Shown: positions 1-18,588 of the stretch, in pieces | Layout: each line of letters starts with the position of its first letter | Numbering within the stretch: the first letter of the stretch is position 1 | From: a virus | IMG/VR virus record: IMGVR_UViG_3300045988_079303 | Coordinates: 1-18,588 of that record | Direction: 5' to 3' (one strand) | DNA: 18,588 nt | Program-made: the position numbers and the translations under genes | The notes under the pieces: model-generated | The model's input: only the letters and a program-made list of their open reading frames with translations | Told to the model about the DNA's origin: nothing | Database searches by the model: none

Positions 1-178
1 CAGTTGGGATCTTTCAGCTAACCGTTCTGTATCAGTTTTAGAAGAACTAGAGGGCTGTACTCCTCCCAACTCGACTCACCCCAACCACACCACAGCGCGA
101 CACACGCCGCACCCACCACAGCGCGACACAGCACACGGCATGTCTGCTCGACACACCGCATGGCTAATGAATGCCACA
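1..178. repeat. Left inverted terminal repeat (ITR) of a linear genome. It is the exact reverse complement of 18411..18588.
   Basis: I reverse-complemented the last ~180 nt by hand and it matches the first ~178 nt base for base (cagttgggatctttcagctaacc... vs ...ggttagctgaaagatcccaactg). A 2-nt indel lies at the inner boundary. Termini of this kind are typical of protein-primed replicons. Confidence 0.95.
88..130. repeat. Direct 17-mer repeat caccacagcgcgacaca (88..104 and 114..130, period 26) inside the ITR. It is mirrored at 18459..18501 in the right ITR.
   Basis: Read directly in the sequence. Its function is unknown; it could be a binding site for replication or packaging proteins. Confidence 0.8.
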
Positions 179-389
179 TGTCAACCTCCTAATCTGTAAG
201 CGGCTGTTACATACCGTTCGCCGATTATCTCAATTTGTGCTGTGATCTACTCATGGCACAGCGTACTATATCTCATGGTACCTTGATAATCGAATCCAGC
301 TGGCCCGCGCTCCGGGGTTGACTTGTCCCCTGGTTCAACGCGGTGGCAATCCGGCTGGGGTCTATAACTGTCAGGCATGGAGGTACATC

Positions 390-692
390 ATGGAAGAGAT
401 GACTACTAAGCTCATCAATCGAGCTATCAAGACTGAGGAGCGACTGCGCTACCTGGCTGAGGAGTTGGCCGTGGAGGCGCAAGCTGCTAAGGATCGCAAT
501 ACTTTTGAGTGGATTGCTTACCGTAACATGCGGGCGATGTGGCGTGGTTCGCGCGAGGTCCTTAAGGACATGGGCGTCAAGCTCTGCGGCTGGGATGATG
601 AGATATTTGGCTATTTGCTGGATGGCGTCTGGCACGACTATAACGAGGAGGGGCTGGATGACTATTCCGAGGAGGGCTTCGATGAGGACTAG
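390..692 (+). CDS. Hypothetical early protein, 100 aa, with a strongly acidic C-terminus (GWDDEIFGYLLDGVWHDYNEEGLDDYSEEGFDED).
   Basis: ATG at 390 follows GGAGGT (379..384) with a 5-nt spacer. It lies in frame within track ORF 318..692, which begins at a TTG with no RBS. It is the first gene after the left ITR. Confidence 0.5.
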   Translation: MEEMTTKLINRAIKTEERLRYLAEELAVEAQAAKDRNTFEWIAYRNMRAMWRGSREVLKDMGVKLCGWDDEIFGYLLDGVWHDYNEEGLDDYSEEGFDED

Positions 693-782
693 CGGGGATT
701 GGGTTCTTAGGCTGTTCTTCTTCGTCCTTGCAATCGTCATGGTCTATTGTCTCTGGGTCGCCCCGCTGAAGGGGTGGTAGTG

Positions 783-998
783 ATGAACATGATGACACAG
801 GATCAGAGAGCGGCCTACGGGCTGGCCATTGACGCGATCATGGGCATCCATGACGCGCTCAATGATTCCGATGACGAGGGCGTGAGGTGGGCGCTTTGCG
901 ACATCTGGCGCGGACTTGTCCAGGATTGCCAGAGGCTCGGGTGCACTGTCGGCCACATTGACGGCATGGTGGTGGTGGTGCCACGTGCCAAGGTTTGA
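783..998 (+). CDS. Hypothetical small early protein (71 aa).
   Basis: ATG at 783 is preceded by GAAGGGGTGG (769..778). It lies in frame within track ORF 747..998. Confidence 0.4.
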   Translation: MNMMTQDQRAAYGLAIDAIMGIHDALNDSDDEGVRWALCDIWRGLVQDCQRLGCTVGHIDGMVVVVPRAKV

Positions 999-1062
999 TG
1001 GGGACGATCAGCGCATCCAGATCGTTTACAAGCGCCCCTGTGAGACTTGTACGGAGAGGGGC

Positions 1063-1275
1063 ATGGCACAGGATTCCTACGAGGATGTCATGGCTTACAT
1101 TCGTAAGAAGAGGGCCAAGTGCATGCGGATTAGGGATCTGGGGGTTGCCAAGAAGAAGCCTGACATGGTGAATGCGGCACTTAACGAGCTGGCCTTATTG
1201 GATTGCCTATCCAAGGCTGCCAGGGGCTGGTTGAATGACAAGCGGAAGCGGGGAAAGTATGAGAAGATACACTGA
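1063..1275 (+). CDS. Hypothetical small basic protein (70 aa, K/R-rich). It may be a DNA-binding early protein.
   Basis: ATG at 1063 follows GGAGAGGGG. The upstream part of track ORF 916..1275 overlaps the previous gene in another frame, so the shorter form is preferred. A start further upstream cannot be excluded. Confidence 0.4.
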   Translation: MAQDSYEDVMAYIRKKRAKCMRIRDLGVAKKKPDMVNAALNELALLDCLSKAARGWLNDKRKRGKYEKIH

Positions 1276-1603
1276 TGATGTGAGCTTCCATAAGAAGCGG
1301 TTTCTGGTTCGCATCGCTGATACTTACGCTCTTATGGCCGTGGATGGCTACACGTTCGAGGATTCCTTGACCGGCCTCACCTTGGGAGTTCACAAGGACG
1401 GCAGGGATGGCATGTGGCACGTAGATTGTCTGCGGACGGGAATGTGCCTGGTGGTCGAGAAGACGCGTGGGCGAGCATACGTCCGCTACAAGCGTGTTCG
1501 TTGGAAGTACGCTGACAAGTTGCAAGCCGGTGATTTTAATAGGCTTCAGGAGGAGTTCGCCGATCTAGTCGATGACTGGGAGAAGAGCAATGGCCGTCCG
1601 TAA
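1259..1603 (+). CDS. Hypothetical early protein (114 aa).
   Basis: ATG at 1259 follows GGGGAAAG. It lies in frame within track ORF 1235..1603 and overlaps the upstream gene by 17 nt, a typical compact phage arrangement. Confidence 0.45.
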   Translation: MRRYTDDVSFHKKRFLVRIADTYALMAVDGYTFEDSLTGLTLGVHKDGRDGMWHVDCLRTGMCLVVEKTRGRAYVRYKRVRWKYADKLQAGDFNRLQEEFADLVDDWEKSNGRP

Positions 1604-1841
1604 CATAAGGCGCCGGGTCACGTTTACCTGCGCGAGGGGAAACAGGCTTAACGCTCTTGGCGAGTTCGAGCCGGTCACTGAGGTTATCTGTGGCCGTCTT
1701 GATAGGCAGGAGGCACAGGACCGAATGAGAAGGGAGTATAGGGATGACACGATCGTAGTTCAGACCGTCGAGCATGACACGAGCACCTACGTTTTGGACT
1801 TTTGGAAGTTTTTGGAACTGGCAACGATTGAGGAGAACTAG
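1590..1841 (+). CDS. Hypothetical small basic protein (83 aa).
   Basis: ATG at 1590 follows GGGAGAAG with a 4-nt spacer. It lies in frame within track ORF 1572..1841. Confidence 0.4.
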   Translation: MAVRNIRRRVTFTCARGNRLNALGEFEPVTEVICGRLDRQEAQDRMRREYRDDTIVVQTVEHDTSTYVLDFWKFLELATIEEN

Positions 1842-1842
1842 C

Positions 1843-2292
1843 ATGAGCATCTTTGACGTCAAGAAGAGCAGCGCCTGGAACTACACGCGCATCGAGAAGG
1901 ATGACTATACCGACACGTTGGGCGGCGTCGTTGTCGGCATGGACAACCCGCAGGCCTACGACTACCGAACCAAGCAGGCCCGCAAGTGGGATGACGGCAC
2001 CCCGGTTCGCAACATTCGCCTGTTCATCGCAATTGCCGATGGCTCCGAGCGTTCCGTCACGTTCCGGCCCAAGAGCGCCCTTTATGACGCGATCGTGAAG
2101 GCGGGTAACCTCGACTCTCTTACCGAGCTTGTCGGTCGAAACATCACGATCAGCACCGAGCCCGGCGCCTATAGCGTGACAAACCCGCGCCCCTGGAAGG
2201 TTATCGTGGGGGACGTTGTTGAGGGTGCCAAGCTCCACAAGGTGCCGGTCATCGACTATGACTCGGACGTGAGCCCCATCACGGGGGAGTAG
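1843..2292 (+). CDS. Hypothetical early protein (149 aa). By position upstream of the terminal-protein and polymerase genes it could be a replication accessory protein (SSB or dsDNA-binding), but this is synteny-based speculation only.
   Basis: ATG at 1843 follows GAGGAGAA (1831..1838). It lies in frame within track ORF 1774..2292. A strong terminator follows. Confidence 0.5.
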   Translation: MSIFDVKKSSAWNYTRIEKDDYTDTLGGVVVGMDNPQAYDYRTKQARKWDDGTPVRNIRLFIAIADGSERSVTFRPKSALYDAIVKAGNLDSLTELVGRNITISTEPGAYSVTNPRPWKVIVGDVVEGAKLHKVPVIDYDSDVSPITGE

Positions 2293-2302
2293 TACCATTT
2301 GA

Positions 2303-2333
2303 GGGCCGGGCGCTTGCCCGGCCCTTTCCTTTG
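2303..2333 (+). terminator. Rho-independent terminator. Stem gggccgggc / gcccggccc (9 bp), loop gctt, then tttcctttg.
   Basis: Perfect GC-rich hairpin at 2303..2324 followed by a T-rich run, immediately after the stop codon at 2292. Confidence 0.75.
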
Positions 2334-2344
2334 ATTGGAGAACC

Positions 2345-3181
2345 ATGGCGGATAAGCGACCCTCGCTATCAAGGCTTCAGAAGCGCGCCCGGGACAAGGC
2401 ATCACGTCTGCGCGGGCGCGGCGCATCCGTCGAGGCTGTGGCCGCAGTGTCTCCGGTCAAACCCTGGGCAGAGGTCAAGGCCTACACGCCAGCGCAGAAG
2501 CGCGCGTATAGGAAGCAGTTAAAGAAGTGGACCTCGCGGGACACGGCATTTGTCGTGTCTACCCCTGGCACCGCTTTTGGGCAGATGCCAGTGGGCGGGG
2601 ACCTAATACCCAAGGAGGACGTCAAGAGGCTCAGGAGCCTTGCCAAGGAACTGCAAAGGATGTCGCGCAAGATGTACGAGGATGTCGCGGGCATCAAGGT
2701 GGACTATTCGGTGCCAGGGGCCAAGGGTGGCATCCGCAAGGACGTGGTGGGCGGCGAGGGTGACCTCAACGCCTTCCAGACAACCAAGTATAGGAGCGTC
2801 TACGGGGGCTTGCCTGAGTTTGAGGTCAAGGTCACGCCAACGAGCGCCAAGGGCGCAAAGCGCATGCAAAGGAACCTTGAGCACGCCATAGCACGTGACA
2901 TTGCCAAGCGCCGCAAGCAGTCACGCGCCAATGCCGTGAAGATGGCAAGGCAGCTGGGCAACGACAAGCTCGCGCGAGGGCTTGCCAACATGAGCGCCAA
3001 GGCCTTTGACGTGCTGGCAAATCGTAGCGACTTCTTCGAGCTGCTGGCCCTGGCCTACTCAGAGAGTCAGGTTGCATCGGGGTACAAGGGTGCGGCGATC
3101 GAGAGCGCCGAGGACACGCAGAGCTCGATGCTGGGCAAGGCCGAGGAGCTATACCACGTGGCGCGCAAGGCGGTGAGGTGA
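2345..3181 (+). CDS. Putative terminal protein (278 aa, very basic) that would prime DNA replication.
   Basis: GGAGA RBS then ATG at 2345. It sits immediately upstream of the protein-primed PolB and is translationally coupled to it (GTGA overlap), as with phi29 gene 3 and gene 2. Its size is comparable to phi29 TP (266 aa). I could not recognise direct sequence similarity from memory. Confidence 0.5.
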   Translation: MADKRPSLSRLQKRARDKASRLRGRGASVEAVAAVSPVKPWAEVKAYTPAQKRAYRKQLKKWTSRDTAFVVSTPGTAFGQMPVGGDLIPKEDVKRLRSLAKELQRMSRKMYEDVAGIKVDYSVPGAKGGIRKDVVGGEGDLNAFQTTKYRSVYGGLPEFEVKVTPTSAKGAKRMQRNLEHAIARDIAKRRKQSRANAVKMARQLGNDKLARGLANMSAKAFDVLANRSDFFELLALAYSESQVASGYKGAAIESAEDTQSSMLGKAEELYHVARKAVR

Positions 3182-4893
3182 GATGCGTGGAGTGGGCCGC
3201 AGCTGACTTCGAGACCACCACGATTGCCGAGGACTGCCGCGTGTGGGCCTGGGCCGTGGCGCCAGTGGGCGAGGGCGAGACGGTGTATGGCAACTCCATC
3301 GACACCTTCTTGCTTTACATGGCTGGGCACGCAGATGTCACGTTTTGGTTTCACAACCTTGCCTTTGATGGGCGTTTCATAACGGACCGCCTCTTGCGCC
3401 TTGGGTATGTGTGGGTTGCCGCCGAGCCGATGGCAGGGCAGTTCACAACGCTTGTGAGCTCCACGGGCAAGTTCTACAGCATGACTATTGCCTTCTACAA
3501 TGGCCGCACGGTTGAGGTGCGCGACTCGCTCAAGGTCTTCCCCATGTCGGTTGCCAACGTCGCCAAGGCCTTTAACCTTCCCGAGGGCAAGGGCGAGCTG
3601 GACTATGAGACGGTGCGCCCGGTGGGGCACGAGTTGACCCACGGGGAAATTGATTACATCCGGCGCGATGTCGAGATCATGGCGGCGGCGCTCAAGTCCA
3701 ACATGGACGAGGGCCTCACCAAGATGACCGTTGGGTCGAATGCCTTCGGCTACTTCAAGGAGCAGACCGGCAAGAAGGCATTCCGAACGCTCTTCCCCAC
3801 CATATCAATGCAGGCGGACGAGGACATAAGGCGATCGTACCGAGGCGGCTTTACCTATGTTAACCCGCGATTCAAGGGTGTTGACGTCTACGGGGGCATC
3901 TCCGTGGATTACAACTCGATGTACCCGAGCATGATGATTTCCAAATGGTACCCGGTTGGGAAGCCACAGCCCTATGATGGTGTGTTTGGCCCGATTGTCG
4001 GTGGGTTTCCCGCGTTTGACCCGGCAAAAGAGTTGTATGTGCAGCGCATGACGGTGACGTTTGCGCTCAAGCCCGATGGCATCCCCATGGTGCAGCTGCG
4101 CTCAAATGGCTTGTTCGGGATGCACGAGTACGTGCGCGAGTGCTCAGAACCCGTGCAGATAACGCTCACCTGCGTTGACTGTGACCTGTTCTTTGGCAAC
4201 TACGACGTCGAGGTGTGGAGCTGGGACGGTGGGTATTCGTTCCGCACGGCGCACGGGTCAAGGCTGTTCGGTGAGTATGTCGAGCACTGGGGGAGCATCA
4301 AGCGTGCGTCAAAGGGGCCAAAGCGGCAGATCGCAAAGCTGATGCTTAACAACATTTACGGCAAGTTCGCCACGAACCCGGACGTTACGCCAAAGGTGCC
4401 GGTCATGGACGAGGGCGGCACGGTGCGCTGGATGCTGGGGCCCGCCGAGACGAGGGATCCGGTTTACCTTCCTGTTGGTGCGTTCTGCACGGCGTGGGCT
4501 AGGCACACGCTCATCTCGGCGATTCACGCGAACCAGGATCGTTTCATTTACTGCGACACCGACTCAATGCACCTGGCCGGAACTGAGGACCCCGAGGGCA
4601 TCCCACTTCATGACACGAACCTTTGTGCATGGAAGGTGGAAGGCACATTCAGCCACGCGCGGCATCTTCGCGCCAAGTGCTACATCTGGGACCTAAACGG
4701 CGAGGTGTCGGTAACGTGCGCGGGCATGCCTAGCAACGTCAAGGCGCTTTGCACCTTCGAGAACTTCCATTTTGGCCTGTCAAACGTTGACCCGCTCACG
4801 GGTAAGGTAATCGAGGGCGCGGGCAAGCTGACACCCGTGAGCGTGCCAGGCGGCGTCGTGCTTGAGCCACGCGCGTATGAGCTTCATGAGTGA
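3178..4893 (+). CDS. Protein-primed family-B DNA polymerase, phi29 gp2-like, 571 aa.
   Basis: The N-terminus ...AAADFETTTIAEDCRVWAWA closely resembles the phi29 ExoI region (CDFETTTKVEDCRVWAYG). FHNLAFDGRFI is the ExoII motif. KLMLNNIYGKF (~4336..4368) is motif B. FIYCDTDSMHLAG (~4548..4580) is motif C, YCDTDS. The GTG start at 3178 overlaps the upstream stop (GTGA). Confidence 0.95.
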   Translation: MRCVEWAAADFETTTIAEDCRVWAWAVAPVGEGETVYGNSIDTFLLYMAGHADVTFWFHNLAFDGRFITDRLLRLGYVWVAAEPMAGQFTTLVSSTGKFYSMTIAFYNGRTVEVRDSLKVFPMSVANVAKAFNLPEGKGELDYETVRPVGHELTHGEIDYIRRDVEIMAAALKSNMDEGLTKMTVGSNAFGYFKEQTGKKAFRTLFPTISMQADEDIRRSYRGGFTYVNPRFKGVDVYGGISVDYNSMYPSMMISKWYPVGKPQPYDGVFGPIVGGFPAFDPAKELYVQRMTVTFALKPDGIPMVQLRSNGLFGMHEYVRECSEPVQITLTCVDCDLFFGNYDVEVWSWDGGYSFRTAHGSRLFGEYVEHWGSIKRASKGPKRQIAKLMLNNIYGKFATNPDVTPKVPVMDEGGTVRWMLGPAETRDPVYLPVGAFCTAWARHTLISAIHANQDRFIYCDTDSMHLAGTEDPEGIPLHDTNLCAWKVEGTFSHARHLRAKCYIWDLNGEVSVTCAGMPSNVKALCTFENFHFGLSNVDPLTGKVIEGAGKLTPVSVPGGVVLEPRAYELHE

Positions 4894-4925
4894 TGTATAG
4901 TGATGGCGTGGGCGGTTGCCGCAGG

Positions 4926-4964
4926 TTCGCAATGGCGCTGATGGGGATTCGCAAGGCTGATCGG
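4926..4964. promoter_or_regulatory. Two imperfect direct repeats, ttcgcaatggcgctgatgg and ttcgcaaggctgatcgg (period 22), in the gap between the polymerase and the structural genes. They may be an operator for an early/late switch regulator.
   Basis: Read directly in the sequence. The location is analogous to the regulator-binding region at the phi29 late promoter. The function is inferred. Confidence 0.3.
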
Positions 4965-5016
4965 CCTTCCCCGCGCTGGCAGGCGGCGCGGCGATGGCGG
5001 TTTGCTGCCCGCAAAC

Positions 5017-5044
5017 TTTACGGCGGCTTGCCACGGTCTATACT
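5017..5044 (+). promoter_or_regulatory. Candidate sigma70-type late promoter: -35 tttacg (5017..5022), 16-nt spacer, -10 tatact (5039..5044).
   Basis: The hexamers match the consensus 4/6 and 5/6 with near-optimal spacing. It lies ~40 nt upstream of the RBS of the scaffold-like gene. A small hairpin gtttgc-tgccc-gcaaac (5000..5016) abuts the -35 element. Confidence 0.3.
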
Positions 5045-5082
5045 GTGAGCAGGCCGCTTTACTTTTAGACAAGGAGGATCGC

Positions 5083-5343
5083 ATGGACGAGAACGAGGAC
5101 AAGCGACCCGCCGAGGAGGAGCCCGAGGGCACCCCCGAGGAGGAGCACGAGAACGAGCAGGACGAGACCAACGCCGAGCAGAGCGCGGGCATCGCAGAGC
5201 TGAAGGCGGACATTGCCGCCATCAATGACAAGATCGATGGCATCATCGCCACGATCGCCACGCTCACGGTGACCGGCGAGGACGAGGCCGAGGATGAGGA
5301 TGATGAGGTCTACCCGGACCTCTCCGACCTGATGGGAGACTAG
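5083..5343 (+). CDS. Extremely acidic small protein (86 aa; MDENEDKRPAEEEPEGTPEEEHENEQDE...EDEAEDEDDEVYPDL). It is probably a head scaffolding protein (phi29 gp7-like position); alternatively a DNA mimic.
   Basis: AAGGAGGA RBS then ATG at 5083. It lies in frame within track ORF 5002..5343. It sits immediately upstream of the major capsid gene, as phi29 gp7 (98 aa, acidic) does. Confidence 0.5.
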   Translation: MDENEDKRPAEEEPEGTPEEEHENEQDETNAEQSAGIAELKADIAAINDKIDGIIATIATLTVTGEDEAEDEDDEVYPDLSDLMGD

Positions 5344-5346
5344 CTA

Positions 5347-7056: not shown

Positions 7057-7074
7057 CACCCAGGCGGTAAAATT

Positions 7075-7109
7075 GGCCCCGAGGTTTCCCCTCGGGGCCT
7101 TTTCTTTTA
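7075..7109 (+). terminator. Rho-independent terminator. Stem ggccccgagg / cctcggggcc (10 bp), loop tttcc, then ttttctttt.
   Basis: Perfect hairpin at 7075..7099 followed by a T tract, directly after the capsid gene stop. Confidence 0.85.
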
Positions 7110-11669: not shown

Positions 11670-11671
11670 GT

Positions 11672-11797
11672 ATGGAATTCATTGCATACCAAGTGATGCT
11701 AGCGTGCGCTACCATCCTTATGATTATGGGGACTATTAGGCTTACCTATGCATTTGTATGCGCAACTCGTGATTTTATGGGGAGGACAAATGATTGA
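11672..11797 (+). CDS. Unannotated 41-aa micro-ORF encoding a single-pass hydrophobic peptide (MEFIAYQVMLACATILMIMGTIRLTYAFVCATRDFMGRTND).
   Basis: It is below the size cut-off of the ORF track. ATG at 11672 follows GAGAGGGG (RBS-like). Its stop overlaps the ATG of the next gene (aaATGAttga). It is low-GC like that gene. Confidence 0.35.
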   Translation: MEFIAYQVMLACATILMIMGTIRLTYAFVCATRDFMGRTND

Positions 11798-12371: not shown

Positions 12372-12382
12372 GGAGGTATCAA

Positions 12383-13045: not shown

Positions 13046-13130
13046 CGTATGCTATACTTTTCTTGCGGCACGCCTAGCGCTTAATCCGCCACGGCCGTCT
13101 AAGGCGCGAATCCTGCCGCAATGCTAAGAT

Positions 13131-13166
13131 TGACCCGTACCCGCACGTGGGTGCGGGTCATTTTCA
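13131..13166 (+). terminator. Rho-independent terminator. Stem cccgcac / gtgcggg (loop gtgg), with outer tga/tca pairs, then ttttcat.
   Basis: Hairpin at 13131..13160 followed by TTTT, in the 130-nt gap after the 220-aa gene. An upstream inverted repeat ttgcggca...tgccgcaa (13063..13120) flanks it. Confidence 0.55.
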
Positions 13167-13178
13167 TAAGGAGGCACC

Positions 13179-13415
13179 ATGAGATACACGGACAATTATC
13201 ATTTCGACCTTTACGAGCCTGATGATAACGCCAACTTGCTGGATGGCTACAATCACACCATTTCGGGCATTGACGCTGTTTTGCAGCAGTTTTCAGCGCT
13301 GATTCAGACGCAGAGCAACGCAATCAAAGCTTACGACACGCGAATCACGGCGCTTGAGACTGCGTGCGCAGACGTAGAGAAGCGCATTGCCGCGCTTGAG
13401 GCCAAGCACCAGTAG
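13179..13415 (+). CDS. Small coiled-coil protein, 78 aa (MRYTDNYHFDLYEPDDNANLLDGYNHTISGID...), paralogous at its N-terminus to the 12383 and 13427 gene products.
   Basis: AAGGAGG RBS then ATG at 13179. The C-terminal part is heptad-like (ITALETACADVEKRIAALEAKHQ). Confidence 0.5.
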   Translation: MRYTDNYHFDLYEPDDNANLLDGYNHTISGIDAVLQQFSALIQTQSNAIKAYDTRITALETACADVEKRIAALEAKHQ

Positions 13416-13426
13416 GGGAGGTTGTT

Positions 13427-13957
13427 ATGGCAAACAGACCTACTACCCTGCATTACGGCATTGCCAAATATGGACCGCAGGGTACCGCCGACCCGATGGA
13501 CGTTTACCGCGTCTACAATGAGGCCATGGAGACAATTGACCGAATCCTCTTCGACCTTCAGGGGCAGATCGCAACCAACAAGAAGGCCATCGAGGACCTC
13601 GACGCCAAGGTCGAGCGCTATAACAATACCCTGAACACGCGCGTTGACAACCTCGATGCCAAGGTCGAGCAGTACCACCAGGAATTCAAGGACTTCAAGG
13701 CGACCACTGAGCAGAAGTTCACCCAGGTTGATAACCACTTTACGCAGCTTGACGGCAAGACTGACAATATCTGGACGGCCATTGCTAACATTCTCAACAA
13801 GATTCAGGGCGGCGGCACGGCCAACAAGGACACGGGCGTTATAAGTTGGGGTGACGGCACGGGGAAGATCGCGCTTGGCACCATCAATCTCAACAGCGGC
13901 AGCGGCTACATTCGCACGCACGATGGCACGCTCGACAATGACCTCAAGGCGGTGTAA
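13427..13957 (+). CDS. Fibre-like coiled-coil protein, 176 aa, with internal repeats (DLDAKVERYNNTLNTRVDNLDAKVEQYHQEF).
   Basis: GGGGAGG RBS then ATG at 13427. The N-terminus ...VYNEAMETID... shares the Y-N-x3-x-x-[VI]-D motif with the two preceding proteins. Confidence 0.5.
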   Translation: MANRPTTLHYGIAKYGPQGTADPMDVYRVYNEAMETIDRILFDLQGQIATNKKAIEDLDAKVERYNNTLNTRVDNLDAKVEQYHQEFKDFKATTEQKFTQVDNHFTQLDGKTDNIWTAIANILNKIQGGGTANKDTGVISWGDGTGKIALGTINLNSGSGYIRTHDGTLDNDLKAV

Positions 13958-13959
13958 CG

Positions 13960-14688
13960 ATGGCTGAGCTTGTGCAAGAGCTCTCCGTCCCCGTTAGAGA
14001 GGACGCGGGCGGCGATTACGGAACACCCACAAGCTTTGGCCTTCCAGGCTACGGCACGGGACATGCCAAGTACTGCAACACCAACTATACGATTGGCATA
14101 CGCGTATACGATGATTTGAGCGTGCAAGCCTGCATAAACGGATCGTTTACGAGTAACGTGCTCAAGGCTGACTACCCGGTTGCCTTTGTACTCAACCCGT
14201 CTAACTTCCGATTTGCGCTGAGCGGTAGCAATCTGACGTACCCGACCACAGCAACGCTAATGGGCAGCGCAGACATTGACGTTGATTCGGGTGGCAGCGG
14301 CACCGGAGAGACGGCAGAGTTTGTCTGGAATCTTGATAGCGGCTGGAAAAGCGTTGGGCACCTTTATGATTTTGGCGCGTCTGACACGGGCCTAGACGGC
14401 TATCTTTGGGTTGGCGGCACTGGCACATATACGCTTACTGACCCCGTATACCCCGTGCCCGTGCGAATTACTGTCCCGGGTTTCCTCAAATACCTAGGAT
14501 ATTACCCATGGGCACGCTATGGGGATGGCAAGTACAAGAGTTGCAACAGGGACGGCGGCTCTCTCATGCAGGTTCGCGGCGGTGCCTACGCTGACGTCCG
14601 CAACTCGGAGCGCGACCACAGCGTGGATAGGGCCTTTTACTACGGGGGCGGCGAATGGAACAGTTGTCTGGAGATTGGGGCAAAGTAA
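13960..14688 (+). CDS. G/Y/T/D-rich beta-type protein, 242 aa. It may be the distal receptor-binding or carbohydrate-binding domain of a fibre.
   Basis: ATG at 13960, only 2 nt after the previous stop, with a weak RBS. The composition is typical of receptor-binding beta-sandwich or beta-helix domains. Confidence 0.45.
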   Translation: MAELVQELSVPVREDAGGDYGTPTSFGLPGYGTGHAKYCNTNYTIGIRVYDDLSVQACINGSFTSNVLKADYPVAFVLNPSNFRFALSGSNLTYPTTATLMGSADIDVDSGGSGTGETAEFVWNLDSGWKSVGHLYDFGASDTGLDGYLWVGGTGTYTLTDPVYPVPVRITVPGFLKYLGYYPWARYGDGKYKSCNRDGGSLMQVRGGAYADVRNSERDHSVDRAFYYGGGEWNSCLEIGAK

Positions 14689-15047
14689 TGATCGAGCTTA
14701 ATGAACCGCAGGAGTGGGCGCTCGCCATTGTCGGCGCGGTAATGATCATTGACGTGGTAAGCGGACTTGTTAAGGCGTTTGCCAAGAAGTGCTACGATTC
14801 GGCAAAGATGCGCATTGGGCTCGTGCACAAGTTCACTGAGCTTGTTATCGTGGGCCTTGCGTTCGTGCTCGAGCTTGCGTGCGAACATATCGCAGGCCTT
14901 CCCTTCAGTGGCGTTACCGTTGTGCTTACCTGCACATACATCATCATCATGGAGGTTGGCAGCATCATGGAGAACCTTATTGCCGCCTACCCAGAGCTTG
15001 CAAACACCCCGCTTGCCAAGCTTTTTGCCGAGCACAAGGAGGACTAA
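14688..15047 (+). CDS. Holin, 119 aa, with three predicted transmembrane helices. It resembles the phage_holin_4_1 / phi29 gp14 type.
   Basis: ATG at 14688 overlaps the upstream stop (taATG), in frame within track ORF 14655..15047. The hydrophobic stretches are WALAIVGAVMIIDVVSGLV, LVIVGLAFVLELACEHIAGL and VTVVLTCTYIIIMEVGSIM, followed by a charged C-terminus. It lies immediately upstream of the endolysin. Confidence 0.7.
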   Translation: MIELNEPQEWALAIVGAVMIIDVVSGLVKAFAKKCYDSAKMRIGLVHKFTELVIVGLAFVLELACEHIAGLPFSGVTVVLTCTYIIIMEVGSIMENLIAAYPELANTPLAKLFAEHKED

Positions 15048-15124
15048 CGTGGTTGACGATGACGAGAAGAAACTAATTGAGTCTCAGGACTCCCAGGATG
15101 AACCAGACGTGGAGGAGGTCAAGG

Positions 15125-15946
15125 GTGAGTAACACGGCGTCTGGCGTGCTTTCCATCGCACGTGGCGAGATCGGCTATGACCGATTCCGCGACCCCGAGC
15201 AGGGAACCAAGTATGGCCGTTGGTACGCGCGGCAGACGGGCGAGCCCTACTATGGCGAGTCGGGCGTGCCCTACTGTGCCATGTTCGTCTCTTGGGTGTT
15301 CGCTGCCGCATCCGCATACTGCGCTGGCATCCCCGCTGCCTACTGCCCTTACATCGAGCGTGACGCCAAGGCGGCAGGCCGCACCGTGGGCAAGACGAGC
15401 GCCCAGGCGGGGGACGTTGTGATTTTCGACTGGGGCAATGACGGCGTTGCCGACCACGTGGGCATTGTCGGGGCAAACAACGGCAGCTACCTTACCACCA
15501 TCGAGGGCAACACCAACAACGGCAAGGTCGCGCGCCGAACCCGCGCGTTTTCCTCCGTCCGCTGCGTGGTTCGCCCCAACTACGATGGCGGCTCTGACCC
15601 CACCCGCATCGAGGAGGACGGCTATTGGGGCGAGAAGACCACGCGCCTTGCCCAGCGCATCGCGCACACGCCGATTGACGGCATCGTGAGCTCTCAGGAC
15701 TCCGGCTGGAAGGGTTCTCTTGCTGGCTGCACGTCCGGATGGGAGTTCGTGAGCAACGCGGTAGGCTCTCAGCTCATCACAGAAATCCAGATCAAGTGTG
15801 GGGTGGCTGCTGACGGCATCATGGGCCGCAACAGCATCAACGCATTCATCAAGCGCTACGGCAACGGCGTGTGTGACGGACGCCTCGACGCGCCGAGCAT
15901 CGCCATCAAGGGATTCCAGCACGCGCTCAATGAGGGTTGGATCTAG
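15125..15946 (+). CDS. Endolysin with an N-terminal CHAP (cysteine/histidine peptidase/amidase) domain and C-terminal PG_binding_1-like repeats.
   Basis: GVPYCAMFVSWVF carries the CHAP catalytic Cys and DHVGIVG the His. The C-terminal EDGYWGEKTTRLAQ and ADGIMGRNSINAFIKRYG are peptidoglycan-binding repeats. GTG at 15125 follows GGAGGAGG; the in-frame starts ATG 15098 and TTG 15077 are alternatives. Confidence 0.75.
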   Translation: MSNTASGVLSIARGEIGYDRFRDPEQGTKYGRWYARQTGEPYYGESGVPYCAMFVSWVFAAASAYCAGIPAAYCPYIERDAKAAGRTVGKTSAQAGDVVIFDWGNDGVADHVGIVGANNGSYLTTIEGNTNNGKVARRTRAFSSVRCVVRPNYDGGSDPTRIEEDGYWGEKTTRLAQRIAHTPIDGIVSSQDSGWKGSLAGCTSGWEFVSNAVGSQLITEIQIKCGVAADGIMGRNSINAFIKRYGNGVCDGRLDAPSIAIKGFQHALNEGWI

Positions 15947-15983
15947 GGTATACTGACATCAGGCCTCATGCCTACCTTCCACA

Positions 15984-16019
15984 AAGGCCGCTCCCTTACC
16001 AGTCCAGGGGAGCGGCCTT
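15984..16019 (+). other. Stable hairpin, aaggccgctccc / gggagcggcctt (12-bp stem, 12-nt loop), with no U-tract.
   Basis: A perfect 12-bp inverted repeat between the endolysin stop and the RBS of the next gene. It may be a partial terminator, an RNA stability element or a processing site. Confidence 0.5.
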
Positions 16020-16038
16020 CATTAGTTCGGGTGAGATC

Positions 16039-17364
16039 ATGCCATTCACTGACGCGCAGAAGAAATATGCGTACTACGTAATCGCAACGGTGGAATCCGA
16101 GTGCGACTATGGCAGCGTATACCAGGAGGACCCTATCACTCTGGGCATCGCCCAGTGGTATGGGCAACACGCCTGGCGCCTCATGAACAAGATGAGGAGC
16201 GAGGCGCCAAACGCCTACGCCAAGCTCTCTGGCAGACTGCGCGGGCTCATGGACGATCCGGGCAAGTCCACATGGGATTTCTGGGCGTCAATCTATACCA
16301 ACAACGATGACGCGGCATCCTTCAGGGATTCCGCCACGCTGGACGAGTGCAAGAGGGTGCAGGACGAGCTATTTCTCTCCGACGCATTCAGTGGCAGGAA
16401 TGAGATTGGCGATCTCAATTACTACGACACGCTCATCAACATGCATGTCGAGGATGACCCCAAGAAGATAATCTATTGGATGTGCGTCTACCACCAGCTG
16501 CCCCGATGGGCGAGCAGGGGCATCTCAGCGATAGGCGGCGGCTCTAGCATCGAGCGAATCCGCGACTGGCTACTCTCAACTCAGGGCCCATCCCAGTACA
16601 GAAACAGGTACCAGACCACCTATAACCTTCTGGCAAAGTGGGACGGCGTGAGCGACCCTCCCGACTTCGGCATGGTGGGCGAAGTCTCGAGTGACCCGAG
16701 CGGCAACATCGAGCAGACCACGCTACAGTCACAGGTGAGCTACGTGGAGCTTGTCGGAAACGATCTCATCATCCATGGAAAGGTCACGAGCTCAGAGCAG
16801 TTGCTATGCCATTACAACGGCACTGGGCGCTGGCTCCCCAAGAGCGGAACCAACGTCGATAATCCTGCTGGCGGCAGCTCAGCCCCGGGAGACGCCCCAG
16901 CGGCAAGCCCAGACGATCCCACCGACTTTCCAGCAATGCGCAAACTCTGGTATGACAACGCCGAGAAATGGGGCTATGCCCAGGCCCCAGGCCGTCTCAA
17001 TCCGCCATCAAGCGGATTCAGCGACTGCTCAGCATGCATCTACTGGGCGGCAAACGCTGCGACTAACAACAAATACTCGTGGATCGGGACGAGCACCCGC
17101 GCCATGCGCGATAACGTGCACATCGTCTATGAGACGAGCGGGCGCACGCTACCACTTAGCGTGCTCCGCCCAGGCGATCTAATCATCATGGACTACAACG
17201 GGGACAACGTGACAGACCACGTGGAGTGGTACATGGGAAATGGCGTAGTATGGGGCGCCGGAAACGCGCCGCTACCGCACCACACCAGCGATGACGTGGA
17301 ACACTTTCTTGAGACATTCAGCTCAAGGCTCGCGCACGTGTGGGTAGGGAGGTTTCTAGACTGA
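16039..17364 (+). CDS. Second peptidoglycan hydrolase, 441 aa. It has an N-terminal lysozyme/lytic-transglycosylase-like region and a C-terminal CHAP/NlpC-P60-type Cys-His peptidase. It is likely a virion-associated (tail) lysin, analogous to phi29 gp13.
   Basis: The C-terminal FSDCSACIYWAAN carries a Cys nucleophile and TDHVEWYMGNG a His. The N-terminal TVESECDY...PITLGIAQWYG resembles the ES...GLMQ signature of SLT domains. ATG at 16039 follows GGGTGAG, and the TTG-extended track ORF is rejected. It overlaps the ATPase start by 1 nt. Confidence 0.55.
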   Translation: MPFTDAQKKYAYYVIATVESECDYGSVYQEDPITLGIAQWYGQHAWRLMNKMRSEAPNAYAKLSGRLRGLMDDPGKSTWDFWASIYTNNDDAASFRDSATLDECKRVQDELFLSDAFSGRNEIGDLNYYDTLINMHVEDDPKKIIYWMCVYHQLPRWASRGISAIGGGSSIERIRDWLLSTQGPSQYRNRYQTTYNLLAKWDGVSDPPDFGMVGEVSSDPSGNIEQTTLQSQVSYVELVGNDLIIHGKVTSSEQLLCHYNGTGRWLPKSGTNVDNPAGGSSAPGDAPAASPDDPTDFPAMRKLWYDNAEKWGYAQAPGRLNPPSSGFSDCSACIYWAANAATNNKYSWIGTSTRAMRDNVHIVYETSGRTLPLSVLRPGDLIIMDYNGDNVTDHVEWYMGNGVVWGAGNAPLPHHTSDDVEHFLETFSSRLAHVWVGRFLD

Positions 17365-18425
17365 TGCAGATTGACAAGAGCTTTCGCTATGACATCTCAG
17401 GCGTCATGGGCTCAGGCTGTGCCGTTAACATCGTCACGGGGGCCCGAGGATGCGGCAAGACGTATGCCTGGAAGAAGAAGTGCATTGAGCTATTCATTAA
17501 GCGCCACTGGACGTGGGCATACACGCGCACGTTCGAGGAGGAGCTAAAGCAGCTGGTTAGCAAGGGACCATATGCGTTCTTCTCCGACATCATGGAGAAC
17601 GACGAGTTCCCCGGATGGATGTTCCGCGTAAATGGGCGCCTTATGCAGGCAGGCAAGGTTGGCAAGGACGGCGGCGTCAAACGATGGGAGACCATGGGCA
17701 ACCTACTGGCACTAACCCAGGCGCAAAACTATAAGGGAACCACGCTTGCCACGCTGCACTATGTAGTCTTTGACGAGTTCATCCGTGAGACGAACATTCC
17801 CTCATACCCAAGAGACTGCGTGTGGAAATTCTATAACCTATGGGACACGCTAGATCGCAATTCCGACCGCGTGCGTTGGATCATGCTCGCCAACGCGGCG
17901 GACGTGGTGAACCCATACTTTGCCGAGTGGCACATAACCCCGCCCGATCCAGGGCGCACCAAGCGCGTGCGCGTAGGCAAAGACTATGCCTATATAGAAA
18001 CATTCGACAACCCCAAGTTTACCGAAGCAACAGGACAGAGTGCAATCGGCAGGTTCACGGCAGGAAGCGCCTATGCTGCCTATGCACGGTTCAACCAATT
18101 CCGCAACGCAGGGCAAGACTTTGTGGCTCCCATGCCCAGGCGCTGCCAGCCGCAGGTAAACATCAAGTGGAGCGGCAATACATACTGCGTATATATGTCA
18201 CTGGACATGGACGGCACCGCTTACGTGTCACGCAAGGCAAACCCTGACGCGCAGACGGTAGCGCTCACCAAGGAGGACATGAGCCCGAACCTATACATGA
18301 TCGAGCGAAACAGCCCGCTACTCAAGGCGTACGGAAAATACTACCGGCAGGGCAACATGAGATTTGACAGCGCCGCGACGCGAGAGAAGTTCGCCAACGT
18401 ACTAGCCATGTGTGGCATTCATTAG
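17364..18425 (+). CDS. DNA packaging ATPase (phi29 gp16-like), 353 aa.
   Basis: Walker A is IVTGARGCGKTYAW and Walker B is LHYVVFDEFIRE. VFDEFIRE...NIPSYP...VRWIMLANAADVVNPYF resembles gp16 VFDEFIREK...YIPNE...VRCICLSNAVSVVNPYF. ATG at 17364 overlaps the upstream stop (tgATG). It is the last gene before the right ITR. Confidence 0.9.
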   Translation: MQIDKSFRYDISGVMGSGCAVNIVTGARGCGKTYAWKKKCIELFIKRHWTWAYTRTFEEELKQLVSKGPYAFFSDIMENDEFPGWMFRVNGRLMQAGKVGKDGGVKRWETMGNLLALTQAQNYKGTTLATLHYVVFDEFIRETNIPSYPRDCVWKFYNLWDTLDRNSDRVRWIMLANAADVVNPYFAEWHITPPDPGRTKRVRVGKDYAYIETFDNPKFTEATGQSAIGRFTAGSAYAAYARFNQFRNAGQDFVAPMPRRCQPQVNIKWSGNTYCVYMSLDMDGTAYVSRKANPDAQTVALTKEDMSPNLYMIERNSPLLKAYGKYYRQGNMRFDSAATREKFANVLAMCGIH

Positions 18426-18588
18426 CCATGCGGTGTGTCGAGCAGACATGCCGTGTGCTGTGTCGCGCTGTGGTGGGTGCGGCGTGTGTCGCGCTGTGGT
18501 GTGGTTGGGGTGAGTCGAGTTGGGAGGAGTACAGCCCTCTAGTTCTTCTAAAACTGATACAGAACGGTTAGCTGAAAGATCCCAACTG
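18411..18588. repeat. Right inverted terminal repeat (ITR).
   Basis: Reverse complement of 1..178. The packaging ATPase stop codon (tag 18423..18425) lies inside it. Confidence 0.95.

What the first reader, a model, noticed from the sequence alone, without database searches (positions are those of the whole stretch)
1..18588. The window is an entire linear protein-primed phage genome bounded by ~178-bp inverted terminal repeats.
Positions 1..178 and 18411..18588 are exact reverse complements. Between them lies a full, single-orientation gene set: early proteins, terminal protein and pPolB, scaffold, capsid, tail knob, portal, fibres, holin, lysins and packaging ATPase. Gene order and motif-level similarity (polymerase, capsid, knob, portal, ATPase) place it with phi29-like podoviruses. 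The 178-bp ITR is much longer than the 6-bp ITR of phi29 and is closer to Cp-1-type phages. No integrase or repressor is present, so it is probably strictly lytic.
Basis: partly seen in the sequence, partly recalled or inferred. Interest (0 to 1): 0.7.

Follow-up and report, generated by a model that had tools for sequence, protein, structure and literature searches.

The report
Complete small protein-primed phage genome
The window is a whole (or nearly whole) 18.6-kb genome of a phi29-like phage of gut Actinomycetota with long inverted ends; that kind is well known, but the genome also carries a conserved, previously undescribed structured RNA gene that might be this lineage's DNA-packaging RNA.

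Summary
Positions 1-178 and 18411-18588 are exact reverse complements, and every credible gene lies on the + strand. The hallmark phi29-type genes are all present: protein-primed PolB, phi29-type capsid, tail knob, connector, lower collar and gp16 ATPase. A terminal-protein gene lies just upstream of pol; its family matches the Av-1 terminal protein (hhalign 95%). Independent assemblies of the same and closely related phages are all free-standing contigs of about 18-19 kb. They break at exactly the same inner ITR boundary, so the ITR is real. Only ITR positions 49-178 are corroborated; the outer 48 nt and the true termini remain unverified. Nearest isolates are actinobacterial phi29-like phages (Av-1, Curtobacterium, Glutamicibacter, Arthrobacter). 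Pol identity is 43-45% and MCP identity at most 30%. ITRs of 176-236 bp are already known in this group. This is therefore a new member of a known kind, probably a new genus infecting gut Actinomycetota. In passing I found a ~160-nt structured RNA gene (4903-5068) with its own promoter and terminator. Covariation is strong across 28 relatives and there is no Rfam match. Its layout resembles phi29 pRNA. I also found a swapped tail-fibre module.

The parts
1..178 (.). Left inverted terminal repeat. It contains two copies of CCACAGCGCGACACA (90-104 and 116-130, 26 nt apart).
   Evidence: Exact reverse complement of 18411-18588. Positions 49-178 are corroborated in relatives and 56-178 in an independent assembly of the same phage. 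Positions 1-48 are seen only here.
18411..18588 (.). Right inverted terminal repeat. Its inner 15 nt encode the last four codons and the stop codon of the ATPase.
   Evidence: The inner boundary is identical in L078, L081, L084, L085, L088 and L089.
390..1603 (+). Five small early ORFs of unknown function (390-692, 658-780, 783-998, 1063-1275, 1259-1603).
   Evidence: No Pfam or PHROG family. They are conserved in close relatives and called as genes in independent records.
1590..1841 (+). p6-like dsDNA-binding (histone-like) protein.
   Evidence: phrog_6370 at 3e-8 and PF17548 p6 at 3e-4. It is 41% identical to phi29 gp6 over 61% of its length.
1843..2292 (+). Putative ssDNA-binding protein, assigned by position only.
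   Evidence: It sits directly upstream of the TP gene, like the annotated SSBs of Av-1, Reje and Voltaire. No family hit.
2301..2326 (+). Intrinsic terminator after the early genes.
   Evidence: 11-bp GC-rich stem followed by a T-run. It was also picked up as a terminator-like weak Rfam hit.
2345..3181 (+). Terminal protein (278 aa). Tyr238 is invariant in 12 aligned relatives and nearly invariant in 24, and is a candidate priming residue.
   Evidence: Its stop codon overlaps the pol start. Homologues are always immediately upstream of pol. The profile matches the Av-1 TP at hhalign 95%, E 2.8e-8. The top PDB fold hit of a low-confidence model is phi29 TP 2ex3_B, E 0.56.
3178..4893 (+). Protein-primed family-B DNA polymerase.
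   Evidence: PF03175 at 6e-54 and phrog_1907 at 2e-130. Identity is 39% to phi29 Pol and 43-45% to the Av-1, Reje and Voltaire polymerases.
4903..5068 (+). Conserved structured RNA gene: a three-way-junction domain (4908-5012), a linker, and a terminator hairpin (5022-5058) followed by a U-run. A -10-like TATAGT lies at 4896-4901. The presumed late-promoter -10 (TATACT) lies in the terminator loop.
   Evidence: Covariance models find it at the same site in 28 relatives. 92% of cells are paired against 63.5% in shuffles, and 47 of 52 pairs show double changes. No Rfam match.
5083..5343 (+). Scaffolding protein (acidic, 86 aa), assigned by position and composition.
   Evidence: It lies immediately upstream of the MCP, as in phi29 and Cp-1. 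No family hit.
5347..7056 (+). Major capsid protein with a C-terminal Ig-like (Big_2) domain.
   Evidence: PF25622 Phi29_MCP at 1e-47 and PF02368 at 1e-5.
7075..7099 (+). Intrinsic terminator after the capsid gene.
   Evidence: 10-bp stem followed by a T-run.
7121..9247 (+). Tail knob protein (gp9-like).
   Evidence: phrog_2248 at 7e-87 and PF20934 at 2e-15.
9260..10261 (+). Connector / upper collar (portal, gp10-like).
   Evidence: PF05352 at 2e-34 and phrog_2038 at 4e-48.
10248..10922 (+). Lower collar (gp11-like adaptor).
   Evidence: phrog_3225 at 3e-16 and phrog_5472 at 6e-5.
10932..14688 (+). Six tail-fibre or appendage candidates (10932-11669, 11790-12371, 12383-13045, 13179-13415, 13427-13957, 13960-14688), with a terminator at 13131-13160.
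   Evidence: Assignment rests on position between collar and holin, and on the coiled-coil hits of the 13427-13957 protein. The module is 94.5% identical to IMG/VR contig L047, whereas the rest of the genome is about 67% identical.
14688..15047 (+). Holin.
   Evidence: PF05105 at 4e-14 and phrog_199.
15098..15946 (+). CHAP-domain endolysin with a C-terminal wall-binding part.
   Evidence: PF05257 at 3e-12 and phrog_21825 at 4e-57. Homologues occur in Actinomyces/Schaalia and Bifidobacterium phages and in Eggerthellaceae and Collinsella genomes.
16039..17364 (+). Candidate tail-associated peptidoglycan hydrolase, by analogy of role and position to phi29 gp13; no similarity to gp13 itself was detected. 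It has a weak C-terminal NlpC/P60 match.
   Evidence: PF00877 at E 0.002. tblastn gives 24% identity to a region of Voltaire, which encodes an annotated cell-wall-binding endopeptidase, and 27% to a region of Av-1; the subject coordinates were not recorded.
17364..18425 (+). gp16-type DNA-packaging ATPase, the last gene; it runs into the right ITR.
   Evidence: PF05894 at 6e-39 and phrog_2150 at 8e-54. It is 31% identical to phi29 gp16.

Best explanation
The window is the complete or near-complete linear dsDNA genome of a virulent phi29-like (picovirus-type) podophage. It replicates by protein priming. A terminal protein (2345-3181) pairs with the family-B polymerase (3178-4893) and starts synthesis at both ends. 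The ~178-bp ITRs supply identical origins, probably organised by the p6-like dsDNA-binding protein and an SSB. Transcription runs left to right in blocks bounded by terminators. The DNA is packaged by a connector plus a gp16-type ATPase. The host is most probably a gut member of the Actinomycetota (Coriobacteriia, Bifidobacterium or Actinomyces-like). Shown here: the ITR, the gene content, homology of all hallmark proteins, recovery as free-standing ~18-19 kb contigs in many samples, and the shared ITR boundary. Inferred: linear topology, covalent attachment of TP, the exact termini, the lytic lifestyle and the host.
For: The ITR is exact over 178 nt.

All hallmark families are present: protein-primed PolB, Phi29_MCP, gp9 knob, gp10 connector, lower collar, gp16 ATPase, p6-like protein, holin and CHAP lysin.

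The TP family lies upstream of pol in about 60 relatives. It matches the Av-1 TP at hhalign 95%, E 2.8e-8. The top PDB fold hit is phi29 TP, but the match is weak.

The same phage was assembled independently as an 18518-bp contig that is identical over window 56-18528.

Close relatives (nucleotide identity about 88-90% to L078 and L081; most proteins 76-100% identical in L078 and L084) occur in at least 10 other runs or assemblies. The longest contigs are 16-19 kb, and no contig exceeds 20 kb.

Logan (k=31) and SPAdes (k=55) contigs of relatives end in exact 30-nt and 55-nt terminal inverted repeats. These are the innermost part of this ITR, and the inner boundary is identical, as expected when an assembler breaks at a true ITR.

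Related isolates have comparable ITRs: Av-1 210 nt, Voltaire 176 nt, Cp-1 236 nt.

The late-gene order matches phi29 gp7 to gp16.

No tRNA gene and no integrase or repressor family were found.

The nearest endolysins come from phages and genomes of Actinomycetota. Sample names VATA22 and MUNK22 hint at a human-gut or sewage origin.
Against: There is no direct evidence for linear ends or protein-linked 5' termini.

The outer 48 nt of the ITR are found only in this contig and differ in composition (GC about 40%).

The independent ENA assembly starts at position 56 on the left. On the right it diverges after ITR position 61 into 45 unrelated bases.

The relatives L084 and L086 end at ITR position 49.

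The terminal sequence 5'-CAGTTGGG has no short reiteration of the kind used for sliding-back in phi29, Cp-1 or PRD1 (established knowledge). The true ends may therefore differ by some bases.

Perfect identity and symmetry of the arms can arise from graph collapse during assembly.

The TP has no significant sequence or fold match to phi29 TP.
Confidence: 0.9

Rival explanations
1. The genome call is right but the ITR is shorter than 178 bp. The true termini would lie near window positions 44-56. The outer ~48 nt would be a chimeric tip, mirrored onto both ends because the assembler collapsed the repeat.
For: Positions 1-48 match nothing in any relative or elsewhere in the genome, and their GC content is about 40% against about 62% for the rest of the ITR. 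L084 and L086 end at ITR position 49. The same-phage ENA contig starts at 56 and diverges at 60 on the other arm. More distant relatives carry a similar motif (AGTATGTG.. / TATATGGGCTGT..) within 0-17 nt of their contig ends.
Against: Ends of metagenomic contigs are routinely truncated by falling coverage, so shorter arms elsewhere prove little. L084 and L086 may come from the same sample. The ENA tail is itself clearly chimeric. An arm of 178 nt exceeds the usual maximum k, so the contig ran to a real tip.
Confidence: 0.25
2. The terminal inverted repeat is an assembly artefact, for example an inverted chimera. The real molecule would be circular or terminally redundant, with no protein-primed ends.
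For: Assemblers can create mirrored ends. Perfect arm identity is what an artefact would also give (inference).
Against: At least eight independent assemblies made with three assemblers show both junctions, ITR to left unique sequence and ITR to right unique sequence, at the same nucleotide. No contig closes into a circle. The genome encodes the TP and protein-primed PolB pair, and related isolates have sequenced ITRs.
Confidence: 0.03
3. It is not strictly lytic. It would persist as a linear phage-plasmid or carrier-state element in its host, as reported for some phi29-related Enterococcus and Clostridium elements.
For: Five early ORFs have no known function. The 2024 review lists phi29-related sequences deposited as plasmids (PMC11476376).
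Against: No integrase, repressor, partition or plasmid-maintenance family was found. The lysis cassette is complete. All contigs are free-standing and 10-20 kb long. The endolysin search of species-representative genomes returned only distant homologues (33-64% identity), none attributable to this phage.
Confidence: 0.07

Closest known systems
Actinomyces phage Av-1 (Dybvigvirus) and other actinobacterial phi29-like podophages (Curtobacterium Reje, Glutamicibacter Voltaire, Arthrobacter Mendel/Anjali, Microbacterium PineapplePizza)
   Same: Genome size is 17-20 kb. The order SSB, TP, Pol, scaffold, MCP, knob, connector, collar is the same, with rightward transcription. ITRs are long (Av-1 210 nt, Voltaire 176 nt). 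These are the best protein matches: Pol 43-45%, knob 29-32%, ATPase 27-30%. The TP families are related.
   Different: There is no nucleotide similarity: megablast finds nothing, and blastn covers about 1% of a 7.9-kb query. MCP identity is at most 30%. Here the ATPase is the last gene and ends inside the ITR. There is no leftward right-end gene block such as Av-1 ORFs A-D or Voltaire gp23-24. Holin and lysins precede the ATPase, as in phi29.
Bacillus phage phi29 (Salasmaviridae, Picovirinae)
   Same: Both have a protein-primed PolB (39% identity), a p6-like protein (41% over 61% of its length), and phi29-type MCP, knob, connector, collar and gp16 ATPase. The late-gene order matches gp7 to gp16.
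   Different: phi29 has a 6-bp ITR, against 178 bp here. Its early genes are transcribed leftward from both ends, whereas here all genes run one way. The phi29 pRNA (RF00044) lies at the left end and has no detectable homologue here. The TP is not detectably similar by sequence.
Streptococcus phage Cp-1 (Salasmaviridae, Cepunavirus)
   Same: It has a long ITR (236 bp) and rightward early and late genes, with TP directly upstream of Pol.
   Different: Pol identity is only 30% and connector identity 24%. Most other proteins give no hit. Cp-1 has leftward genes at its right end.
Uncultivated relatives in IMG/VR (e.g. IMGVR_UViG_3300045988_075114) and in Logan/ENA assemblies
   Same: Logan and ENA contigs share most proteins at 76-100% identity (the g15 and g16 fibre proteins only 37-54%), have the same gene order and have the same ITR boundary. 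IMG/VR contigs share Pol at 56-70% identity and carry the same RNA element.
   Different: None is described or named. The IMG/VR relatives are about 67% identical in DNA, except for a 4.1-kb tail-fibre and holin module at 94.5%. One sub-clade has ITRs of only about 10 nt (AGTATGTGAG).
phi29 prohead RNA (pRNA, Rfam RF00044), compared with the RNA element at 4903-5068
   Same: Both are small RNAs of about 160-174 nt. Each has a ~105-117-nt three-way-junction domain closed by a 5'/3' helix. One arm has an internal loop plus a distal stem-loop, and the other arm is a plain hairpin. A short single-stranded linker and a 3' hairpin domain follow. Each is encoded by a phage with a gp16-type ATPase (pRNA layout from PMC5066667).
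   Different: There is no detectable homology to RF00044. The element lies between pol and the late genes, not at the left end. No consistent complementary loop pair for ring formation is seen; only L010 shows a GGCA/UGCC swap. Its function is untested.

Membership tests
phi29-like protein-primed podophages (former Picovirinae sensu lato) | Small (about 12-25 kb) linear dsDNA genome with inverted terminal repeats | tested here: met
   The contig is 18588 bp with an exact 178-nt ITR. Relatives break at the same ITR boundary. Linearity itself is inferred.
phi29-like protein-primed podophages (former Picovirinae sensu lato) | Protein-primed family-B DNA polymerase | tested here: met
   PF03175 at 6e-54 and phrog_1907 at 2e-130. 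Full-length identity to phi29 Pol is 39%.
phi29-like protein-primed podophages (former Picovirinae sensu lato) | Terminal-protein gene adjacent to pol | tested here: met
   A 278-aa ORF overlaps the pol start. Its family profile matches the Av-1 TP at hhalign 95%, E 2.8e-8. Synteny holds in about 60 relatives. The match to phi29 TP is weak.
phi29-like protein-primed podophages (former Picovirinae sensu lato) | Terminal protein covalently bound to the 5' ends; initiation at the termini with sliding-back | not testable with these tools
   This needs virion DNA biochemistry or raw reads. The terminal 5'-CAGTTGGG shows no reiteration.
phi29-like protein-primed podophages (former Picovirinae sensu lato) | phi29-type structural set: MCP, tail knob gp9, connector gp10, lower collar gp11 | tested here: met
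   PF25622 at 1e-47, phrog_2248 at 7e-87, PF05352 at 2e-34 and phrog_3225 at 3e-16.
phi29-like protein-primed podophages (former Picovirinae sensu lato) | gp16-type packaging ATPase without a separate small terminase | tested here: met
   PF05894 at 6e-39 and phrog_2150 at 8e-54. No small-terminase family is found in any ORF.
phi29-like protein-primed podophages (former Picovirinae sensu lato) | Prohead/packaging RNA (demonstrated only for Bacillus phi29-like phages) | tested here: inconclusive
   RF00044 is absent, although the model does find phi29's own pRNA. A conserved RNA with a pRNA-like layout exists at 4903-5068, but its function is unknown.
Family Salasmaviridae (ICTV) | Clusters with phi29, Cp-1 and relatives rather than with other phi29-like lineages | tested here: not met
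   The best hits are phages outside Salasmaviridae. Av-1 (Dybvigvirus) and Mendel (Anjalivirus) have no family assigned, and Reje and Voltaire are unclassified. Identity to phi29 and Cp-1 is lower: Pol 39% and 30%, with MCP 24% to phi29 and no hit to Cp-1. No formal phylogeny was run.
Any existing phage genus (ICTV 70% nucleotide-identity rule, established knowledge) | At least 70% nucleotide identity over the genome to a classified member | tested here: not met
   megablast finds no match among 50,697 phage records. blastn matches cover about 1% of a 7.9-kb query.

The most novel reading that the evidence does not exclude
The conserved ~160-nt RNA encoded between pol and the scaffold gene (4903-5068) would be the functional counterpart of phi29 pRNA in actinobacterial phi29-like phages. 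It has its own -10 element, a three-way junction closed by a 5'/3' helix, a linker and a 3' hairpin terminator. If so, it would be a second, sequence-unrelated family of packaging RNAs, showing that RNA-dependent packaging motors extend well beyond Bacillus phages. The main rival reading is a cis-acting leader or antitermination element, or a lambda 6S-like terminated transcript, that times late-gene expression.
Probability: 0.3. Interest if true: 0.75.

Novelty: new member of a known kind. Interest (0 to 1): 0.4.

Why it matters
As a genome, it adds a well-supported reference for an uncultivated lineage of tiny protein-primed phages that recurs in many public metagenome runs and assemblies. 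That lineage probably preys on gut Actinomycetota, such as Coriobacteriia or Bifidobacterium, for which few virulent phages exist. It would probably define a new genus. It also documents how such genomes fragment at their ITRs in short-read assemblies.

The more interesting by-product is the structured RNA gene. pRNA is regarded as peculiar to Bacillus phi29-like phages (PMC11476376). A covarying RNA with a pRNA-like layout, found at a fixed position in a distant clade, turns the question 'do other phi29-like motors use an RNA?' into a directly testable one.

The swapped tail-fibre cassette also gives a natural experiment on host-range exchange between phages that are only about 67% identical.

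Tried and rejected
- megablast of the whole window against 50,697 phage records found no match.
- tblastn of the TP against phage records found no match.
- The TP family profile gave nothing meaningful against PDB sequences or Pfam.
The accepted job gave only pLDDT 62, so the fold search is no more than suggestive.
- An ATPase-based locus search in IMG/VR matched no pattern.
- Exact look-ups of two ATPase start variants were not on record.
- Two JGI metagenome scans and one IMG/VR scan for ITR motifs gave nothing useful, so the outer ITR could not be checked there.
- The ends of the about 67%-identical relatives do not align with this ITR.
- Rfam has no pRNA or any other family here. It also misses Av-1's annotated pRNA, so that negative result is weak.
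- The left non-coding region 179-389 folds better than shuffles (z -3.5) but shows no covariation among close relatives, so it is not claimed as an RNA.
- The strongly conserved intergenic regions at 11665-11795 and 13040-13182 were first suspected to be RNAs. They are explained instead by the 94.5%-identical recombinant module.
- The final RNA model found no significant full-length homologue in Av-1, Reje, Voltaire, BP1, Mendel or BadAztec1. It gave only weak hits at the syntenic site.
- I rejected a consistent loop-loop complementarity of the kind seen between the pRNA CE and D loops. It is not seen except in L010.

Full report
**Observation.** The repeat finder reports arms 1-178 and 18411-18588 as 178 nt and 100% complementary. 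A direct comparison of the window with its reverse complement gives an exact run of 178 that breaks at 179. The window has 57.5% G+C, with a dip to 0.49-0.53 around 11-13 kb. All ORFs with family support lie on the + strand. The long minus-strand ORFs are antisense shadows of plus-strand genes in a GC-rich genome.

**Gene content.** Pfam and PHROG scans give the following.

| Coordinates | Assignment | Evidence |
|---|---|---|
| 3178-4893 | protein-primed PolB | PF03175 6e-54; phrog_1907 2e-130 |
| 5347-7056 | phi29-type MCP with Big_2 domain | PF25622 1e-47 |
| 7121-9247 | tail knob | phrog_2248 7e-87 |
| 9260-10261 | connector | PF05352 2e-34 |
| 10248-10922 | lower collar | phrog_3225 3e-16 |
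| 14688-15047 | holin | PF05105 4e-14 |
| 15098-15946 | CHAP endolysin | phrog_21825 4e-57 |
| 16039-17364 | second wall hydrolase | weak NlpC/P60 match |
| 17364-18425 | gp16-type ATPase | PF05894 6e-39 |
| 1590-1841 | p6-like dsDNA-binding protein | phrog_6370 3e-8; 41% identity to phi29 gp6 |

There are no tRNA genes, and no ORF hits an integrase, repressor or partition family. Strong plus-strand terminators lie at 2301-2326, 7075-7099 and 13131-13160, and another at 5022-5058. The late-gene order from scaffold to ATPase mirrors phi29 gp7-gp16. Unlike phi29, Cp-1 and Av-1, this genome has no leftward gene block at the right end. The ATPase is the last gene, and its final four codons and stop codon lie inside the right ITR.

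**Terminal protein.** The 278-aa ORF at 2345-3181 overlaps the pol start codon. It has no Pfam, PHROG, PDB-sequence or tblastn match.
- phmmer against ORFs of all fetched loci shows that its homologues always sit immediately upstream of pol. They reach Voltaire's annotated 'putative terminal protein' and Reje gp02.
- A 24-member profile matches the annotated Av-1 terminal protein at hhalign probability 95%, E 2.8e-8, over 210 columns. Its match to phi29 TP is only weak, though it lies at the equivalent N-terminal position (E 0.005, probability 7%).
- An AlphaFold model from a shallow alignment is of low confidence (pLDDT 62). Its best hit among 350,542 PDB chains is phi29 TP 2ex3_B, but at E 0.56. 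I treat this as suggestive only.
- Tyr238 is invariant in the 12-sequence alignment and nearly invariant in the 24-sequence one, and it aligns with a Tyr of Av-1 TP. It is a candidate priming residue (inference).

**Is it a whole genome with real ITRs?** The window is a JGI contig of exactly 18588 bp.
- The same phage was assembled independently by MEGAHIT (ENA ERZ27272174, 18518 bp). That contig is identical from window 56 to 18528, then ends in 45 unrelated bases, which I read as a chimeric tip.
- Relatives about 88-90% identical in DNA occur in at least ten further runs or assemblies. The longest contigs are 16-19 kb, and no contig exceeds 20 kb.
- Logan contigs (k=31) of these relatives carry exact 30-nt terminal inverted repeats, and SPAdes scaffolds carry 55-nt ones. 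In every case these are the innermost bases of this ITR. The junctions to the left and right unique sequence are at the same nucleotide as in the window. This is the signature of assemblers breaking at a genuine ITR.
- One relative (L084 and L086) carries 130 nt of the right arm, starting at window ITR position 49.

ITR positions 49-178 are therefore corroborated. Positions 1-48 (GC about 40%) exist only in this contig and match nothing else. Because an ITR collapses to one path in the assembly graph, symmetric ends and 100% arm identity may be constructional. The terminal 5'-CAGTTGGG lacks the short reiteration used for sliding-back in characterised systems (established knowledge). The exact termini are therefore open, and I give 25% to a shorter true ITR.

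**Comparison with known phages.**
- ITRs of comparable length are normal in the group: Av-1 210 nt at 94%, Voltaire 176 nt at 100%, and Cp-1 236 nt as annotated. phi29 has 6 nt. A sub-clade of IMG/VR relatives has only about 10 nt, AGTATGTGAG.
- At the DNA level nothing known is similar: megablast finds nothing, and blastn covers about 1% of a 7.9-kb query.
- By protein, the nearest isolates are actinobacterial phi29-like phages. Pol identity is 45% to Reje and 43% to Av-1 and Voltaire, and MCP identity is at most 30%. phi29 Pol is 39% identical and Cp-1 Pol 30%.
- A 2024 review already counts more than 2000 phi29-related sequences, including isolates on Bifidobacterium, Eggerthella and Actinomyces (PMC11476376).

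The finding is therefore a new member of a known kind. It probably represents a new genus outside Salasmaviridae.

**Host.** The closest full-length endolysin homologues are in Actinomyces/Schaalia phage LC001 (48.5%) and Bifidobacterium phage Bbif-1 (43.7%). Among genomes they are in Eggerthellaceae MAGs (49-64%) and in Bifidobacterium, Collinsella, Olsenella, Atopobium, Varibaculum and Actinomyces. Record names of close relatives (VATA22, MUNK22) suggest human-gut or sewage data sets; that reading rests on my own knowledge of those study names. I infer a gut Actinomycetota host and cannot be more specific.

**Recombinant module.** Window 10958-15043 (fibre candidates plus holin) is 94.5% identical to IMG/VR contig 3300045988_075114, whereas the rest of the two genomes is about 67% identical. 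Conversely, the relatives that are otherwise 76-100% identical at protein level differ sharply in the proteins at 11790-12371 and 12383-13045 (37-54% identity). The gene at the position of 12383-13045 (220 aa here) encodes 250-477 aa in six relatives, and in three others a single 365-387-aa gene replaces the two genes at 11790-13045. This cassette coincides with the GC dip. It explains the unexpectedly conserved intergenic stretches first seen.

**A conserved structured RNA gene (4903-5068).**
- The 189-nt gap between pol and the scaffold gene showed nucleotide similarity to relatives that are only about 67% identical overall, although the adjacent scaffold gene is not conserved with them.
- In unaligned sequences, one hairpin keeps its shape while its stem sequence changes: GGGGA/UCCCC, CAGGG/CCCUG, CCACC/GGUGG, CCCUC/GAGGG, CCCCG/CGGGG, GGGAC/GUCCC and GGCGCG/CGCGCC. 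The stem encloses a conserved GCAA-containing internal loop. A second hairpin has a covarying stem with a nearly invariant GGCA loop.
- A covariance model built from seven close relatives found full-length matches at the same site in nine more distant genomes (E 1e-6 to 1e-12). A second model added two further sub-clades (E 1e-7 to 1e-11).
- On 28 sequences, 92% of cells pair, against 63.5% in shuffles and 35-43% when partners are slid. 47 of 52 pairs show double changes. The covariation score is 0.67, against 0.18 for shuffles and 0.09 for slid partners. The alignment is fitted to the model, which inflates these figures, but the covariation was already visible before any model was built.
- The structure is a long 5'/3' helix carrying an invariant G.U, G-C, U.G triplet. 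Those wobble pairs mean the + strand is the folded strand. The helix leads to a three-way junction with the two hairpins (4908-5012), then a 9-nt linker, then a 16-bp terminator hairpin with a U-run.
- Every sub-clade has a -10-like hexamer 5-12 nt upstream of the first helix. Two sub-clades have a perfect TTGACA-N18-CATAAT. It therefore looks like a discrete RNA of about 160 nt with its own promoter.
- Among close relatives the element is 97% identical, against about 88-90% genome-wide.
- Rfam has no match, even in a 211-nt search at E<=10. Its pRNA model does find phi29's own pRNA at 145 bits.
- Isolates (Av-1, Mendel, Voltaire, BadAztec1) show no significant homologue. At the same site, however, each has a ~100-nt helix-closed domain, a linker and a strong terminator (z -2.4 to -5.9).
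- The layout parallels phi29 pRNA: domain I of 117 nt with a three-way junction, a 13-nt linker, and a domain II hairpin (PMC5066667). I do not see consistent complementary loops for ring formation.
- The position just before the late genes equally suits a leader or antitermination element, or a lambda 6S-like terminated transcript. I put the pRNA reading at about 0.3.

**Verdict.** The refinements concern lineage (actinobacterial phi29-like, not Salasmaviridae), the ordinariness of a ~180-bp ITR in that lineage, and the unverified outermost 48 nt. The interest of the finding itself is modest. The RNA element and the swapped fibre cassette are the parts worth following up.

Noticed in passing
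window 4903-5068 (+): A conserved structured RNA gene lies between pol and the scaffold gene. It has a three-way-junction domain, a linker and a terminator, with its own -10 element. Covariation is strong across 28 relatives and there is no Rfam match. Its layout resembles pRNA.
   Followed up: yes
window 10958-15043: The tail-fibre and holin module is 94.5% identical to IMG/VR contig 3300045988_075114, which is otherwise about 67% identical. The proteins at 11790-13045 differ (37-54%) from relatives that are otherwise 76-100% identical at protein level, and the module coincides with a GC dip to 0.49. This looks like a swapped receptor-binding cassette.
   Followed up: partly
window 1-48 and 18541-18588: The outermost 48 nt of the ITR (GC about 40%) are found in no relative. 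An independent assembly of the same phage starts at 56 and, on the other arm, diverges at ITR position 60 into 45 unrelated bases. The true termini are therefore uncertain. The terminal CAGTTGGG has no reiteration for sliding-back.
   Followed up: partly
window 18411-18425: The packaging ATPase gene ends inside the right ITR (codons C-G-I-H-stop). The inner 15 nt of the repeat are therefore coding on the right and non-coding on the left, and no gene lies beyond the ATPase.
   Followed up: yes
window 90-104 and 116-130 (mirrored at 18459-18499): There are two direct copies of CCACAGCGCGACACA, 26 nt apart, inside the ITR, plus a third CGACACA at 149-155. They could be binding sites for the p6-like protein or another origin-binding or regulatory factor.
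   Followed up: no
window 2345-3181, residue 238: A tyrosine in the C-terminal helical part is invariant in the 12-sequence alignment and nearly invariant in the 24-sequence one. It aligns with a Tyr of the Av-1 TP and is a candidate priming residue.
   Followed up: partly
window 5022-5058: The terminator hairpin that ends the RNA carries a conserved -10-like TATACT in its loop. In other sub-clades the hexamer lies just after the hairpin, and some have an extended -10, TGnTATTAT. No -35 is evident, which suggests an activator-dependent late promoter overlapping the terminator.
   Followed up: partly
window 179-389: The left non-coding region folds better than shuffles (z -3.5) but shows no compensatory changes among eight close relatives. 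It probably holds the early promoter and leader.
   Followed up: partly
window 18-179 (-) and 18410-18571 (+): A 53-codon ORF lies inside the ITR and is therefore present at both ends. It was called as a gene in the ENA record. It has no family hit and is probably spurious.
   Followed up: partly
L063, L065, L066, L069, L074 (IMG/VR relatives), both ends: A sub-clade with Pol about 56% identical has only a ~10-nt ITR, AGTATGTGAG. ITR length therefore varies from about 10 to about 200 nt within this actinobacterial phi29-like group.
   Followed up: partly
L068, L070 and L076, contig ends: Several IMG/VR contigs of relatives end in Nextera or Illumina adapter sequence (TGTATAAGAGACAG, GCTCTTCCGATCT). 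These are untrimmed adapters at contig ends, which may mark real DNA ends.
   Followed up: no
L001 4469-4611; L119 2435-2584; L003 4769-4918; L120 12700-12849 (-): In Av-1, Mendel, Voltaire and BadAztec1, the gap upstream of the scaffold-like gene also folds into a ~100-nt helix-closed domain, a linker and a strong terminator (z -2.4 to -5.9). Av-1's annotated pRNA lies elsewhere (16295-16402) and is not recognised by Rfam.
   Followed up: partly
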